A DNA stretch of 32,000 bases from Mycoplasmoides pneumoniae FH (lineage in GTDB: Bacteria > Bacillota_I > Bacilli_A > Mycoplasmatales > Mycoplasmoidaceae). Under the pieces are notes generated by a model. It had not been told where the DNA came from and made no database searches. It saw only the letters and a program-made list of their open reading frames with translations. The DNA lies in NCBI RefSeq assembly GCF_001272835.1, contig NZ_CP010546.1:452809-484808 (forward strand), in the 5' to 3' direction. Below are positions 3,619 through 14,866 of this stretch, piece by piece. The number at the start of each line of letters is the position of its first letter. Within the stretch, counting starts at the first letter, position 1. Position numbers and translations under genes: made by a program.

Positions 3619-4497
3619 ATGAAAAACAAAATTAAATACGTTTACTCCGACCTGGATGGCACGATTGTGAGCTGAAATCCTAAAAACCAGTTTACCCATC
3701 AGGGCAAAACTTACAAAAATCTCCATGAAGTTAGTCACGCTACCGTAACTGCTTTTAAACAATTACAAGCTCAAGGTATCAAAATTGGAATTGTGACTGG
3801 CCGTGATTACTGTCGCGTTCGTTGGTTAGAAAAGTACCTAAACACTGATCTACCAACAATTACCCTCGATGGCGCCATTATTTACTTCCGCGATGAAATT
3901 ATTCGGCAAGAAGTGCTTGATAAGGAATTTATCCATGGCATTAACCAGATTGTCAAACGTTACCCTACAGCAGCCTTTAAGCTCAACATGGGTTGAGGTA
4001 ACTATTACACCTGCAATCCTTCTTTAATCTTTGAAGGTGACCATGCTTACCGTGAGCACTTTAATGCTGACAGTAAGTTTTATCGCAAAGAGATCGACAA
4101 CACGGTTGATTGAGATATAAATAACATGAAAGTAAATCAGGTTTACTTTGACACATTTACTTGCCCTGAACCAATGATCCAAGAGCTCGATAACTTAGTT
4201 GAAAAAAGTGATGTAACCGCCAAAAGCTACCGCCATTCACTTTACATTATTAAAAAAGGGGTATCGAAGGCTAGTGCACTACAAAACCTCCAACGAGACT
4301 TTTTAGTGGAAATGAAGCCTGCTAACACGATTGTCTTTGGTGATGGGGATAATGACATTGAAATGATGCAGTGAGCTGATCACAGTGTGTCGTTAACTGG
4401 TAGTGATCCCGAGTGTTATAAGTTAGCTAAGTACCACACCGACAGCGTTGACGATGATGGGATTGCCAAATGGATTAATAAAAATCTGTTATGTTAA
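3619..4497 (+). CDS. Cof-type HAD-superfamily hydrolase/phosphatase (292 aa)
   Basis: ATG 3619 is in frame with track ORFs 3793..3996 and 4126..4374 through TGA codons at 3673, 3994, 4111 and 4372. The stop is TAA 4495-4497. HAD motif I is YSDLDGT and motif IV is GDGDNDIEM. Confidence 0.9.
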
Positions 4498-5093
4498 TCG
4501 CTGTTGTAGGCAAAGCTGGAGTTGGTAAAACCACCGTTTTGCAATACATCGCTGACTATTTTCATTTTCCCGTTTTTTTTGCTGATCGGTTTATCCATCA
4601 ACAATACGCAAATGGTCAAGCTGGTTATGCAATTGTAAAACAGCAATTTGGTGCTCAGTTTGTCAATCATGAAGCAGTTGATCGCAAACAGTTAGCACAA
4701 TACGTTTTTAATCAACCTGATGAGTTAAAGCGTTTGTCCAACTTAACCAAACCCCTAGTACAAGAGTGACTCAATCAATTAAAAGCGCAATTCCAAGACA
4801 AAATTGCACTTGTGGAAATTGCGGTGATGCTCAATTACTGAAACGATTACCGCCCTTTCTTTGATGAAGTAATCCAAATTGAACGTGATGCTAAGATAGT
4901 AAAACAAGCACTAAAAGCACGTGGCGTTGATGTAGAGCAGGTGCAAAAGTTAATTGCTGATCCGACTTACCCAATTCTTACAGTAATCAATAACAGCACT
5001 GTAGCTGAGTGTGCTTTACACGTTACTCAATTTTTAGAAAGCATTGCAAAAAGTGATAAATGCCATCATGGTCATTATCAAACTCCGAAATAA
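4491..5093 (+). CDS. coaE: Dephospho-CoA kinase (200 aa under table 4)
   Basis: The ATG overlaps the upstream stop by 7 nt, and the P-loop is GKAGVGKTT. Track ORF 4491..4769 ends at a TGA. Reading TGA 4767 and 4839 as Trp moves the first real stop to TAA 5091-5093, inside the convergent gene. Confidence 0.85.
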
Positions 5094-13339: not shown

Positions 13340-14548
13340 CTAAGCTACTTCTAAATCAATTAATTCTTCGATTTGCTTGGCAATTTCCTTACCAAAGCGA
13401 CCCACATCAGCGCCATCGACCCAGCGGTGGTCGGCAGCAATTGTTAACGGTAGGATGGTATGAACGGCTACCCCACCTTCAGCACGCACAACACGTTCTT
13501 CCATGTTACCGGTAGCGACAATACACATTTCCGGGTGCTTAATAATCGGGGTACCAAAAGCAGCGCCTAAAGAACCAAAGTTAGTTACCGAGATCGTTCC
13601 CTTACTTAAATCAGGAAGCTTAATTTGCTTACTGCGGGCACGGTTAGCAAGATCAACAATGTCCTTGGCAATGTCGACTACCGACTTCGTTTGTGCTTGC
13701 TTAATGTTAGGCACAATCAGACCATCGGGAGTGTCCACGGCAATACCTACGTTAACATCCTTGTTTAACACAATTAGGTTGCGTTCCTTGTCATAACGAC
13801 CATTGAAAACAGGAAACTTCTTCAAAGCATTAACAATTGCTTTAACAAAGAAAGCAAAGAAGGAAATCTTCATGTTGTACTTGCTTAAAGCTAAGCCGTT
13901 AACACTCTCACGGTACTGCTTTAACTTAGTAGCGTTAACATAGAAGGTGAGAATCGTAGCGGGAATGTTTTCGTGTGATTTCACCATTGCTTCAGCAATT
14001 GCTTTACGCATTGTCGTGATCGCAATCGTTTCCTCACCACTAGGTGCTGCTGCAGATGCTGGAGCTGGAGTGGGAGTTGGAGCGGATGTAGGTTGTACTA
14101 CAGGAGCTGGTGTTGGTTGGGGCGCACTTGGCTGCACACCAAAAATAGGAAACACACTGTTCGATACCTTAATTTCACCCACTACCGAGGCACCCGCCTC
14201 TTCCACTACTGGTTCGGTGGTTACAGGTGCTGGTGTTGGGGTAAATGTTGGGGTTGGGGCAGGAGCTGGTGCAGATACTGGTTGGGGCGCAGCAGGTGCA
14301 GCAGCACCAGCGCCATCATCAATAACGGCCATCACCTGACCAATGTGCACCACATCACCAACATTAGTGGTAATGGCGGTAATAACCCCAGCATAAGGGG
14401 ATGGAAGTTCGGTGGTTACCTTATCGGTTTCCACTACAAAAAGGGCTTCATCGACCTTGATCGTATCGCCCACTTTTTTGAGGATTTCAGTTACTTTACC
14501 CTCATGTAAGCCCTCACCAACATCGGTGAACTTAAACTCATTTGCCAT
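13340..14548 (-). CDS. pdhC: Dihydrolipoamide acetyltransferase, PDH E2 (402 aa)
   Basis: This is the track ORF trimmed to the first ATG (14548, MANEFKF); the track start at 14557 is a TTG. It has a lipoyl domain with VETDKV, two Ala/Pro-rich linkers, and a catalytic domain with DHRWVDG. Confidence 0.96.
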   Translation of the reverse strand: MANEFKFTDVGEGLHEGKVTEILKKVGDTIKVDEALFVVETDKVTTELPSPYAGVITAITTNVGDVVHIGQVMAVIDDGAGAAAPAAPQPVSAPAPAPTPTFTPTPAPVTTEPVVEEAGASVVGEIKVSNSVFPIFGVQPSAPQPTPAPVVQPTSAPTPTPAPASAAAPSGEETIAITTMRKAIAEAMVKSHENIPATILTFYVNATKLKQYRESVNGLALSKYNMKISFFAFFVKAIVNALKKFPVFNGRYDKERNLIVLNKDVNVGIAVDTPDGLIVPNIKQAQTKSVVDIAKDIVDLANRARSKQIKLPDLSKGTISVTNFGSLGAAFGTPIIKHPEMCIVATGNMEERVVRAEGGVAVHTILPLTIAADHRWVDGADVGRFGKEIAKQIEELIDLEVA

Positions 14549-14566
14549 GATATACAAACTGTTTTA

Positions 14567-14572
14567 ATTTTA
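14567..14572 (-). promoter_or_regulatory. Candidate -10 box (TAAAAT) for pdhC-pdhD
   Basis: The minus strand reads TAAAAT 19 nt upstream of ATG 14548 and immediately downstream of the terminator hairpin. Confidence 0.4.
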
Positions 14573-14593
14573 GATTTAAAGCAAAAGTAATGC

Positions 14594-14625
14594 AAATAAA
14601 AAACCAGTCTTACGACTGGCTTTTT
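14594..14625 (-). terminator. Intrinsic (bidirectional-looking) terminator between the micro-ORF and pdhC
   Basis: The minus strand reads AAAAAG-CCAGTC-GTAA-GACTGG-TTTTTTATTT. This is a 6-bp GC-rich stem (14604-14609 with 14614-14619), extendable by A:U pairs, capped by a GNRA tetraloop and followed by a U-tract. Confidence 0.7.
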
Positions 14626-14655
14626 ATCTAAAACGAAATTTAGAGAAATTTCGCC

Positions 14656-14745
14656 TTATTTTTGGCAGCATTTGCAACCGCCACAGTTGCATTTACTGCA
14701 GTTAGCTGTTTCGGTTTTGCAACCACAGCATTTCTTGTCTTCCAT
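14656..14745 (-). CDS. 29-aa cysteine-rich micro-ORF: MEDKKCCGCKTETANCSKCNCGGCKCCQK (9 Cys, metallothionein-like spacing)
   Basis: The ORF runs from ATG 14745-14743 to TAA 14658-14656 and was translated codon by codon from the window. It contains CC, CxC and CxxC motifs. It sits between its own -10 box and a terminator. It is too short for the ORF track. Confidence 0.45.
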   Translation of the reverse strand: MEDKKCCGCKTETANCSKCNCGGCKCCQK

Positions 14746-14811
14746 CTTAATATGAAATAAATGGTGTTCCCTAGCCTTCTCAACTTTTAGTTAAAAAAAC
14801 TAGGTGCAATT

Positions 14812-14817
14812 ATTCTA
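14812..14817 (-). promoter_or_regulatory. Candidate -10 box (TAGAAT) for the small RNA / micro-ORF
   Basis: The minus strand reads TAGAAT 50 nt after the pdhB stop and 67 nt upstream of the micro-ORF ATG. Confidence 0.45.
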
Positions 14818-14866
14818 ACAAACCTCAAACTTATTTCAAATGGCTTGATTTAGAAAAGTCGTTAGT

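What the first reader, a model, noticed from the sequence alone, without database searches (positions are those of the whole stretch)
14594..14817. Insulated mini-gene inside the pdh cluster: -10 box, a 29-codon ORF with 9 cysteines, and a GNRA-capped terminator
The 318-nt pdhB-pdhC spacer is not empty. On the minus strand it carries TAGAAT (14817-14812) and then ATG 14745 opening MEDKKCCGCKTETANCSKCNCGGCKCCQK, which stops at TAA 14658-14656. About 37 nt further on is CCAGTC-GTAA-GACTGG followed by a U-tract, and then a separate TAAAAT box for pdhC. The predicted transcript is ~205-215 nt. Nine Cys in 29 residues (31 percent), arranged as CC, CxC and CxxC and interleaved with Lys, resembles metallothionein or metal-cluster peptides, and I know of no metallothionein described in Mollicutes. 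The DNA also contains near-repeats (TTTGCAACCGCCACAG at 14671-14686 and TTTGCAACCACAG at 14716-14728), so the RNA could be structured and act as an RNA. I recall a ~200-nt RNA (MP200) with a Cys-rich 29-aa ORF being reported in this spacer in M. pneumoniae and M. genitalium around 2000, with its function and translation left open. The locus is therefore probably known, but as far as I know its biology is unresolved.
Basis: partly seen in the sequence, partly recalled or inferred. Interest (0 to 1): 0.75.

Follow-up and report, generated by a model that had tools for sequence, protein, structure and literature searches.

The report
Known MP200 cysteine-rich mini-gene
The gap between two pyruvate dehydrogenase genes of Mycoplasma pneumoniae holds a tiny self-contained gene, already described as MP200/MPN391a, for a 29-residue peptide that is one-third cysteine; the gene is real and shows selection on its cysteines, but its function is still unproven.

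Summary
The window is M. pneumoniae M129, and the 29-aa peptide is identical to GenBank CAG7571469.1, named "MP200". This is the published MP200 RNA / MPN391a locus, so it is already known.

What I add is comparative evidence.
- The mini-gene occurs only in M. pneumoniae and M. genitalium. Sixteen other Mycoplasmoides-type pdhB-pdhC spacers are 26-157 nt long and carry no such ORF.
- The M. genitalium ORF is 23 aa with 8 Cys. It differs by in-frame indels only (+3 and -21 nt).
- All 6 alignable Cys codons are kept despite 18 substitutions in 69 aligned nt (random-placement P about 0.002).
- The -10 region, a 5' hairpin, a hairpin after the stop codon and the terminator keep their positions in both species.
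- No homologue turned up in Pfam, NCBIfam, PDB or 1.84 billion protein representatives.

The resemblance to metallothionein is one of composition and motifs, not of ancestry.

One side finding: the overlapping 47-aa TTG ORF in another frame is what 38 GenBank genomes annotate, and its coordinates and mass are what the 2015 MPN391a table lists. It has no start codon in M. genitalium.

Best reading: an abundant, stable monocistronic mRNA encoding a thiol-rich peptide that buffers metals or oxidants.

The parts
14812..14839 (-). MP200 promoter: -35-like TTGAAA (14839-14834), a 16-nt spacer, and TG-extended -10 TGTTAGAAT (14820-12).
   Evidence: Consensus scan scored 10/12 with TG; coordinates verified. 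A -10-like box is kept at the aligned position in M. genitalium. The 'mp200 promoter' is used to drive cat reporters (PMC7246954). The published TSS 469317 equals window 14810.
14770..14804 (-). Strong hairpin at the 5' end of the transcript, with a CCUAG/CUAGG base and a 16-bp stem.
   Evidence: MFE fold of 14807-14596 and helix mapping. M. genitalium has a 12-bp hairpin with the same CCUAG/CUAGG base but a different upper stem.
14742..14764 (-). Weak hairpin that pairs CCAUUU with AGAUGG, so the start codon is partly sequestered. There is no Shine-Dalgarno sequence.
   Evidence: An equivalent CCUCAUUU / AAGUGAUGG pairing is predicted in M. genitalium. Any role in translation is inferred only.
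14656..14745 (-). MP200 ORF: MEDKKCCGCKTETANCSKCNCGGCKCCQK plus TAA (29 aa, 9 Cys, 3.1 kDa, pI 8.4).
   Evidence: Translation. Exact match to CAG7571469.1 'MP200'. The M. genitalium orthologue is MEDNKKCCQCKCECAKCNSCCKK, with in-frame indels and 6/6 alignable Cys retained.
14671..14728 (-). Two direct near-repeats, CTGTGGTTGCAAA (14728-14716) and CTGTGGCGGTTGCAAA (14686-14671), encoding C-G-C-K and C-G-G-C-K.
   Evidence: Coordinates verified. The second copy lies inside the 21-nt segment missing from M. genitalium.
14629..14658 (-). 13-bp hairpin that begins at the stop codon (UAAGGCGAAAUUUC-UCUA-AAUUUCGUUUUA).
   Evidence: M. genitalium has a hairpin in the same place with a different sequence (GACAAAA-UUU-UUGUC). 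The published TTS 469137 equals window 14630, at its 3' edge.
14593..14630 (-). Intrinsic terminator: core CCAGUC-GUAA-GACUGG (14619-14604), extended by A/U pairs, followed by U6.
   Evidence: Terminator scan. The stem CCAGU/ACUGG and the U-tract are conserved in M. genitalium, but the loop is different. Region identity is 23/30.
14549..14596 (-). Separate pdhC promoter (TTTGCA-18-TAAAAT, -10 at 14572-14567) and short leader; pdhC ATG is at 14548.
   Evidence: The published pdhC TSS 469068 equals window 14561.
14640..14783 (-). Overlapping 47-aa TTG ORF in the +1 frame (LRRLGNTIYFILRWKTRNAVVAKPKQLTAVNATVAVANAAKNKAKFL). Databases annotate it, but it is probably not a genuine product.
   Evidence: GenBank annotates it as 'hypothetical protein' on 38 M. 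pneumoniae contigs. The Lluch-Senar Table S2 start/stop (469290/469147) and the 5.3-kDa mass match this frame. It has no ATG/GTG/TTG in M. genitalium, and 0 synonymous against 11 non-synonymous codon changes. Its TTG lies in the 3' arm of the 5' hairpin.

Best explanation
The 318-nt pdhB-pdhC spacer of M. pneumoniae carries the known MP200/MPN391a mini-gene.

How it is built:
1. A TG-extended -10 promoter starts a monocistronic RNA of about 205-215 nt.
2. A stable hairpin at or near the 5' end, plus two 3' hairpins (the second being the intrinsic terminator), probably make the RNA long-lived and very abundant. This step is inferred.
3. The same terminator ends read-through from nox-pdhAB.
4. 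pdhC restarts from its own promoter about 25 nt further on.

What it encodes: the RNA is an mRNA. Its 29-codon ORF is translated into a Lys/Cys-rich peptide whose cysteines are the selected feature.

What the peptide most likely does (inferred, not shown): it acts as a metallothionein-like thiol buffer. It would bind soft metal ions (Zn/Cu/Cd) in thiolate clusters and so also absorb oxidants, in a cell whose proteome is only about 0.8% Cys.

Origin: the gene is an orphan that arose in the common ancestor of M. pneumoniae and M. genitalium. It is dispensable in rich medium.

My confidence by step:
- Autonomous, known mini-gene: about 0.95.
- Peptide-level selection: about 0.85.
- Metal/oxidant thiol-buffer function: about 0.4.
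For: - Identity: the peptide exactly matches CAG7571469.1 'MP200' of M129. Lluch-Senar 2015 lists it as MPN391a/MP200 with its own TSS and TTS.
- Anatomy: the promoter and terminator are called by the scan. The RNA folds far better than shuffled versions, z = -8.6 in M. pneumoniae and -5.6 in M. genitalium. The 5' hairpin, post-stop hairpin and terminator sit at equivalent positions in both species.
- Coding selection: indels are in-frame only (+3, -21 nt). The start, the stop and the N-terminal MED(N)KKCC are kept. All 6 alignable Cys are kept while 16 of 51 nt changed in the other codons; random placement of the substitutions keeps all Cys in 0.2% of trials.
- Frame comparison: the Cys frame has 4 synonymous-only codon changes. 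The +1 frame has none, and the +2 frame has stops.
- Strain variation: across 11 M. genitalium and 3 M. pneumoniae loci, the only change in the ORF is one Ala-to-Val.
- Translation competence: there is a 2005 paper on synthesis of the peptide (title cited). The 29-aa ORF is used as an N-terminal fusion on mCherry and Venus.
- Abundance and dispensability: log2CPKM is 14.2 at 6 h and 12.4 at 96 h, the highest in the smORF table. The gene is scored non-essential, with 65 transposon insertions in 115 bp.
- Metallothionein-like features: 31% Cys, CC/CxC/CxxC motifs, no aromatic residues or His, 3.1 kDa. M. genitalium turns two Thr into additional Cys, giving C-x-C-x-C-x-C.
Against: - No metal-binding or redox experiment is available to me. 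The 'peroxide resistance' role is described only as 'predicted'.
- There is no sequence homology to any metallothionein family or any other protein.
- The gene is non-essential in culture.
- Only two species carry it, so the comparative power is small and the placement of the 21-nt indel is partly arbitrary.
- The one mass-spectrometry peptide credited to MPN391a may belong to the other frame.
- The published TSS (window 14810) would leave about 6 unpaired nt ahead of the 5' hairpin. This weakens the stabiliser argument.
Confidence: 0.55

Rival explanations
1. The peptide is a sacrificial thiol or peroxide scavenger, or a redox partner of the neighbouring nox/pdh enzymes, and is not a metal binder. 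The gene anatomy is the same; only the chemistry of the product differs.
For: Lluch-Senar 2015 describe MPN391a as 'predicted to be involved in peroxide resistance', citing Zimmerman & Herrmann 2005. The gene sits between redox enzymes: nox, pdhA and pdhB upstream, pdhC and pdhD downstream. The proteome is very poor in Cys.
Against: This is a prediction only; no data were retrievable. The dense CC/CxC spacing is typical of metal-thiolate clusters rather than catalytic redox pairs, and only one CxxC is conserved. The position in the pdh cluster may be an accident of where the insertion landed, because 16 related species have a pdh cluster without it.
Confidence: 0.25
2. The element matters mainly in cis. 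It is a terminator-plus-promoter insulator that splits pdhAB from pdhCD. The highly expressed ORF is a passenger whose peptide has no function of its own.
For: The terminator and the pdhC promoter lie back to back. The terminator is the best-conserved part, at 23/30 identity. The gene is non-essential with dense transposon insertions. M. gallisepticum and M. imitans have spacers of about 150 nt with an inverted repeat and promoter-like boxes but no ORF.
Against: A passenger ORF should not keep its start, stop, reading frame and every alignable Cys through 26% nucleotide divergence (P about 0.002). It also should not gain extra Cys in M. genitalium. An insulator needs neither its own strong promoter nor a 5' hairpin.
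Confidence: 0.1
3. MP200 acts as a structured regulatory RNA, either alone or as a dual-function RNA, and the ORF is secondary.
For: The RNA folds much better than shuffled versions (z = -8.6 and -5.6). It is extremely abundant. It was first described as a small RNA (Göhlmann 2000, cited).
Against: The conserved structure is confined to the 5' hairpin, the post-stop hairpin and the terminator, which are ordinary features of a stable mRNA. The hairpins inside the ORF differ between the species. There is no Rfam match beyond sub-threshold hits on the terminator. The substitution pattern is codon-aware. No base-pairing target is known.
Confidence: 0.07
4. The real product is the overlapping 47-aa basic, Ala-rich protein from the TTG at 14783 (+1 frame). 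This is the ORF that GenBank and the 2015 table annotate.
For: It is annotated as a hypothetical protein on 38 M. pneumoniae contigs. The Table S2 coordinates and the 5.3-kDa expected mass fit this frame, and one unique peptide was detected by SEC-MS. This frame would give a good tryptic peptide, whereas the Cys-rich frame gives only very short ones; that comparison is my inference.
Against: M. genitalium has no ATG/GTG/TTG in this frame. There are 0 synonymous against 11 non-synonymous codon changes and 48% amino-acid identity. Its TTG is buried in the 5' hairpin stem. The Ala-richness follows automatically from TGC/TGT codons read one base later. The authors themselves describe MPN391a as the cysteine-rich peptide.
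Confidence: 0.03

Closest known systems
MP200 RNA / MPN391a of M. pneumoniae (Göhlmann et al. 2000, J Bacteriol 182:3281; Zimmerman & Herrmann 2005, FEMS Microbiol Lett 253:315; Lluch-Senar et al. 2015, PMC4332154)
   Same: This is the same locus. The peptide is identical, it sits in the same pdhB-pdhC position, and the listed TSS/TTS fall inside the element.
   Different: Nothing differs in the sequence. I add the phylogenetic restriction, the 23-aa M. genitalium form with conserved Cys, the conserved hairpin layout, and the frame discrepancy in public annotation.
Small metallothioneins: the beta-domain of vertebrate MT (9 Cys in about 30 residues, M3Cys9 cluster) and Neurospora crassa Cu-MT (25 aa, 7 Cys). 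The properties and sequences of these are from my memory.
   Same: Size, about 30% Cys, CC/CxC/CxxC motifs, many Lys/Ser/Thr/Gly/Asn, and no aromatic residues or His.
   Different: There is no detectable homology. Pfam gave no hit at E up to 10. BLASTP against human MT2A gave E = 1.7. Against N. crassa MT it gave E = 0.017 for an 11-residue motif that lies in the M. pneumoniae-specific duplication. Metal binding is untested.
Bacterial metallothioneins: SmtA/BmtA (zinc-finger-like, Cys plus His) and mycobacterial MymT (Cu). These are from my knowledge.
   Same: Small cytoplasmic Cys-rich bacterial peptides thought to buffer Zn or Cu.
   Different: Those are about 50-55 aa, contain His, and belong to defined families. 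MP200 matches none of them.
Small RNAs that turned out to be, or also are, mRNAs for tiny proteins: B. subtilis SR1/SR1P, S. aureus RNAIII/hld, E. coli SgrS/SgrT. These are from my knowledge.
   Same: A roughly 200-nt abundant 'sRNA' first seen on Northern blots that carries a translated ORF of fewer than 50 codons.
   Different: No base-pairing target or regulatory role is known for MP200. Its conserved structures are stabiliser and terminator hairpins only.

Membership tests
MP200 / MPN391a locus | A 29-aa Cys-rich ORF identical to the deposited MP200 protein of M. pneumoniae M129 | tested here: met
   The exact-sequence look-up returns CAG7571469.1 'MP200 [Mycoplasmoides pneumoniae M129]'.
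MP200 / MPN391a locus | Located between pdhB (MPN392) and pdhC (MPN391), on the same strand | tested here: met
   Table-4 ORF map. With an offset of +454507, the window coordinates of pdhB, pdhC and MPN391a coincide with Lluch-Senar Table S2.
MP200 / MPN391a locus | A discrete transcript of about 200 nt | not testable with these tools
   Sequence predicts about 205-215 nt from promoter to terminator. The published TSS/TTS table gives 181 nt. The 205/210-nt Northern sizes are from my memory of Göhlmann 2000; that paper is not held.
MP200 / MPN391a locus | An orthologue in the same spacer of M. genitalium | tested here: met
   Eleven M. genitalium loci (L081, L087-L096) carry MEDNKKCCQCKCECAKCNSCCKK, with a promoter-like box, hairpins and terminator.
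Metallothionein (operational definition) | Low molecular mass, about 15-30% or more Cys, CC/CxC/CxxC motifs, and few or no aromatic residues or His | tested here: met
   M. pneumoniae: 3.1 kDa, 9/29 Cys, motifs CC, CxC, CxxC, no F/Y/W/H. M. genitalium: 8/23 Cys.
Metallothionein (operational definition) | Binds metal ions in thiolate clusters | not testable with these tools
   This needs metal titration or ICP-MS of the peptide. No paper in the library links metallothionein to this peptide.
Metallothionein (sequence families, e.g. Pfam Metallothio, bacterial SmtA type) | Significant match to a family profile or a member sequence | tested here: not met
   No Pfam or NCBIfam family at E up to 10. 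No relevant PDB match. Only the query's own 29-aa entry was found among 1.84 billion representatives. BLASTP against two MTs was not significant.
Rho-independent (intrinsic) terminator | G+C-containing stem-loop directly followed by a U-tract, downstream of the stop codon | tested here: met
   The scan calls 14630-14593 with 17 pairs, a 4-nt loop and T6. The stem and U-tract are conserved in M. genitalium.
Curated RNA family (Rfam) | Match at or above a family's gathering score | tested here: not met
   The best hits score 24-26 bits against gathering scores of 47-80, and all of them include the terminator hairpin.
Cys-rich RiPP precursor (e.g. SCIFF/ranthipeptide, from my knowledge) | An adjacent maturase such as a radical-SAM enzyme | tested here: not met
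   The neighbours in both species are apt, nox, pdhA, pdhB, pdhC, pdhD and lplA only.

The most novel reading that the evidence does not exclude
MP200 is a true metallothionein that arose de novo. It was born inside a formerly 30-70-nt operon spacer in the ancestor of the two human pathogens M. pneumoniae and M. genitalium. It would be the first metallothionein in Mollicutes and, given how abundant its mRNA is, the main low-molecular-weight thiol and metal buffer of a cell that lacks glutathione. The M. pneumoniae form was enlarged by an internal C-G-(G)-C-K duplication.
Probability: 0.3. Interest if true: 0.55.

Novelty: already known. Interest (0 to 1): 0.3.

Why it matters
The locus has been in the literature since 2000, and its promoter and 29-aa leader are standard tools for Mycoplasma engineering. 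Even so, nobody has shown what the peptide does.

If it is a metal or oxidant buffer, it would fill a gap in the stress physiology of a minimal cell. It would also be a clean example of a new gene arising within an operon spacer.

There is a practical point too. Many GenBank M. pneumoniae genomes, and the coordinates and mass in the 2015 smORF table, describe the overlapping 47-aa frame rather than the Cys-rich peptide. Proteomic evidence credited to 'MPN391a' therefore needs re-checking.

Tried and rejected
- Rfam in E-value mode gave only sub-threshold hits, driven by the terminator hairpin.
- Pfam, NCBIfam and PDB sequence searches with both peptides found nothing relevant.
- Exhaustive phmmer with a 30-aa version (one extra upstream Lys) against 1.84 billion representatives found only the peptide's own 29-aa entry. 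Gene callers rarely call ORFs this short, so absence there is weak evidence.
All looked like chance hits. A recurrent MEDKKCCELA(C/Y)C in contigs with 57-60% G+C is a 12-codon ORF; I take it to be an out-of-frame reading across the start of a conserved secreted-protein gene, unrelated to MP200.
- BLASTP against human MT2A and N. crassa Cu-MT (both sequences from my memory) showed no meaningful similarity.
- The genome-contig scan with PdhB did not return M. pneumoniae or M. genitalium themselves. I reached M. genitalium through the PdhB protein clusters instead.
- The primary papers, Göhlmann 2000 (PMC94519) and Zimmerman & Herrmann 2005 (PMID 16260096), are not held. Their content is known to me only through titles, citing sentences and memory.
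- The Miravet-Verde 2019 supplements contain no mention of the peptide.
- No tryptic peptide sequence of either frame appears in the Lluch-Senar supplements.
- I considered reading the CCTAG...CTAGG palindrome as a protein operator and rejected it. The arm spacing differs between the species (25 nt in M. pneumoniae, 11 in M. genitalium), and the intervening bases are themselves paired, which fits an RNA hairpin.
Full report
**1. Observation**

- pdhB ends with TAA at 14869-14867 and pdhC starts with ATG at 14548, so the spacer is 318 nt.
- TAGAAT lies at 14817-14812. It is preceded by TGT, which makes it a TG-extended -10, and by TTGAAA 16 nt upstream. It is the best promoter-like site in the region, scoring 10/12.
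- ATG 14745 to TAA 14656 translates to MEDKKCCGCKTETANCSKCNCGGCKCCQK.
- CCAGTC-GTAA-GACTGG lies at 14619-14604, 36 nt after the stop. It is followed by T6 and is called a terminator, with A/U pairs extending the stem to 14630-14593.
- A second promoter-like site, TTTGCA-18-TAAAAT with the -10 at 14572-14567, precedes pdhC.

The ORF is unusual for this window. Its Cys fraction is 0.31, the highest of 486 ORFs of at least 20 aa, while the 22 ORFs of at least 200 aa average 0.8% Cys. Thirty shuffles of the window produced at most 7 Cys in any ORF of 20-40 aa.

**2. Identity**

The exact peptide is in the protein collection as CAG7571469.1, 'MP200 [Mycoplasmoides pneumoniae M129]', on an 816,550-bp contig. 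The window is therefore M. pneumoniae M129.

Adding 454,507 to window coordinates reproduces the published coordinates of pdhB and pdhC, and of the ORF listed for MPN391a/MP200 (see section 5), in Table S2 of Lluch-Senar et al. 2015. That paper reports the following for MPN391a:
- It lists a TSS at 469317 (window 14810) and a TTS at 469137 (window 14630).
- It counts 65 transposon insertions in 115 bp and scores the gene non-essential.
- It gives log2CPKM 14.2 at 6 h and 12.4 at 96 h, the highest values in its smORF table.

The founding papers appear in reference lists but are not held. They are Göhlmann et al. [quoted passage not shown]

Both the promoter and the ORF are used as engineering parts. 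The 'mp200 promoter' drives cat. The 29-aa ORF is fused to the N-terminus of mCherry and Venus 'to improve protein stability' or 'to facilitate translation'.

The finding is therefore already known.

**3. Comparative evidence (new here)**

*Finding the relatives.* A PdhB-based scan of one genome per species returned many relatives, but not M. pneumoniae or M. genitalium themselves. A PdhB protein search showed one cluster at 89% identity and then a drop to 68%. The 89% cluster contains the named M. genitalium proteins. Its encoding contigs gave eleven M. genitalium loci, L081 and L087-L096, with the same gene order apt-nox-pdhA-pdhB-spacer-pdhC-pdhD-lplA and a spacer of 249-250 nt.

*The M. 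genitalium ORF.* That spacer holds ATG...TAA encoding MEDNKKCCQCKCECAKCNSCCKK, which is 23 aa with 8 Cys. Compared with M. pneumoniae:
- The ORF differs by one 3-nt insertion and one 21-nt deletion. Both are in frame.
- It also differs by 18 substitutions in 69 aligned nt.
- All 6 alignable Cys codons stay Cys, with only 2 changes, both synonymous, in 18 nt.
- The other codons have 16 changes in 51 nt.
- Two Thr codons have become Cys.
- Placing 18 substitutions at random keeps all six Cys in 0.2% of 200,000 trials.

*Frame comparison.* The Cys frame has 4 synonymous-only codon differences and 67% amino-acid identity. The +1 frame has none and 48% identity. The +2 frame has stop codons.

*Variation within species.* The ORF is invariant in three M. 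pneumoniae loci. It is also invariant in ten of eleven M. genitalium loci; the eleventh has one Ala-to-Val change.

The repeats encode C-G-C-K and C-G-G-C-K. They are best explained as an internal coding duplication, or as a loss in M. genitalium, and not as RNA pairing partners, because direct repeats cannot pair with each other.

**4. Distribution**

No other sampled relative has the element.
- pdhB-pdhC spacers are 26-69 nt in M. pirum, M. alvi, M. testudinis and M. amphoriforme, in five Mycoplasmoidaceae MAGs, and in three further loci from unnamed Mycoplasmoides-type species.
- M. gallisepticum and M. imitans have very AT-rich spacers of 148-157 nt. These contain an inverted repeat and promoter-like boxes but no Cys-rich ORF. 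The terminator scan called nothing in the M. gallisepticum spacer.
- A scan of about 7 kb around pdhB in all these loci found no comparable ORF.

The mini-gene therefore looks like an insertion, or a de novo birth, in the M. pneumoniae/M. genitalium ancestor.

No homologue is detectable in Pfam, NCBIfam, PDB or 1.84 billion protein representatives. A degenerate DNA scan of metagenomes gave only chance hits.

**5. RNA anatomy**

The 212-nt stretch 14807-14596 folds to -77.1 kcal/mol, against -43.2 +/- 3.9 for shuffled versions (z = -8.6). The M. genitalium counterpart has z = -5.6.

Both RNAs have the same four elements in the same order:
1. A long hairpin at the 5' end with a conserved CCUAG/CUAGG base and a divergent but still paired upper stem (window 14804-14770).
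2. A weak hairpin that pairs the AUG with an upstream CCAU or CAU (14764-14742).
3. A hairpin that starts at or just after the stop codon, with different sequences in the two species (14658-14629).
4. The terminator, whose stem CCAGU/ACUGG and U-tract are conserved while the loop is not. The loop is GUAA in M. pneumoniae and 6 nt in M. genitalium.

The hairpins inside the ORF are not shared between the species. No Rfam family matches.

I read this as the architecture of a stable mRNA. In Firmicutes, 5'-terminal and 3' hairpins protect against RNase J and 3' exonucleases; this is general knowledge, not tested here. Such an architecture would fit the very high RNA level. It does not by itself point to a riboregulator.

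Two uncertainties remain:
- The published TSS (14810) leaves about 6 nt ahead of the 5' hairpin.
- In M. genitalium either TAAAAT or the overlapping TATAGT could be the -10 box.

**6. The other frame**

A 47-aa TTG ORF (14783-14640, +1 frame) overlaps the Cys-rich ORF. Public annotation favours this frame:
- It is annotated as 'hypothetical protein' on 38 M. pneumoniae GenBank contigs.
- Its coordinates are exactly the start and stop listed for MPN391a in Table S2 (469290 and 469147).
- Its mass of 5.24-5.26 kDa matches the 'expected Mw 5.3' in Table S5. The Cys-rich peptide weighs 3.1 kDa.
- The single unique peptide reported by SEC-MS may therefore have been matched to this frame. I could not find the peptide sequence.

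The comparative data argue against it:
- M. genitalium has no ATG, GTG or TTG in this frame.
- There are no synonymous codon changes.
- The TTG lies in the 3' arm of the 5' hairpin.
- Its Ala-richness follows automatically from reading TGC/TGT codons one base later.

**7. Mechanism**

*Shown or strongly supported:*
- The unit is autonomous, with its own promoter, ORF and terminator.
- It is identical to MP200.
- Selection acts on the cysteines of the 29-aa and 23-aa frame.
- It is restricted to one lineage.
- It is dispensable in culture.
- Its RNA is very abundant.

*Inferred:*
- The same terminator also ends nox-pdhAB read-through, and pdhC restarts from its own promoter.
- The hairpins confer RNA stability.
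- The peptide works through its thiols.

*The function I commit to.* I think a metallothionein-like buffer is most likely, with a probability of about 0.4. The reasons are 31-35% Cys, CC/CxC/CxxC spacing, no aromatic residues or His, and a size equal to a 9-Cys metallothionein beta-domain (that last comparison is from my knowledge). Such peptides also quench oxidants. A purely peroxide- or redox-related role is the closest rival, as the 2015 paper's wording suggests.

Membership in any metallothionein sequence family was tested and not met. The claim is therefore 'works like' and not 'is a member of'.

**8. Verdict**

The feature is already known, so the score is modest. What remains interesting is:
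- the unresolved biochemistry of the peptide;
- the apparent recent origin of the gene inside an operon spacer;
- the frame mix-up in public annotation.

Noticed in passing
window 14640-14783 (minus strand): A 47-aa TTG ORF overlaps the Cys-rich ORF in the +1 frame. GenBank annotates this frame on 38 M. pneumoniae contigs. Its coordinates and 5.3-kDa mass are also what the 2015 MPN391a tables list, so MS evidence credited to the Cys-rich peptide may belong to the wrong frame.
   Followed up: yes
L100 3979-4135 (M. gallisepticum) and L001 3976-4123 (M. imitans): The pdhB-pdhC spacer is about 150 nt and 16-18% G+C. It has an AT-rich inverted repeat (ATCGTTTTTATTAAT...ATTAATAAAAACGAT) and promoter-like boxes but no ORF. 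This may be an independent split of the pdh operon. The strict terminator scan run on the M. gallisepticum spacer called nothing.
   Followed up: partly
L087-L096 and L081, loop of the 5' hairpin (about L081 4010-4018): The T-run in the loop of the M. genitalium 5' hairpin varies in length by 1 nt among strains, giving a 249- or 250-nt spacer. One strain (L092) has GCT to GTT (Ala to Val) in the ORF.
   Followed up: partly
window 14825 and 14555: Two M. pneumoniae strain polymorphisms flank the mini-gene. One is A to G between the -35 and -10 of the MP200 promoter (L086). The other is G to T in the pdhC leader (L085, L086). A further variant on 2 GenBank contigs changes the last residue of the 47-aa frame (L to F), which places it in the loop of the post-stop hairpin.
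   Followed up: no
window 14604-14619 (plus strand): The terminator hairpin also scores as a terminator on the plus strand (CCAGTCTTACGACTGG followed by CTTTTTATCT), although no ORF of 100 aa or more is predicted on the plus strand in the adjacent intergenic region.
   Followed up: no
L007-L010 (Mycoplasmopsis species and a 'Ureaplasma sp.' MAG), about 3970-4950: After pdhB comes an E2-like ORF of about 240-310 aa with the catalytic domain. The lipoyl-domain match to the PdhC N-terminus lies about 750-950 nt further downstream. The E2 region is therefore organised differently from the pneumoniae group.
   Followed up: no
L118, L123, L125, L130, L134, L153, L190 (metagenome contigs, 57-60% G+C): A recurrent 12-codon ORF MEDKKCCELA(C/Y)C was picked up by the degenerate scan. 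I take it to be an out-of-frame reading across the start of a conserved secreted-protein gene, unrelated to MP200.
   Followed up: partly
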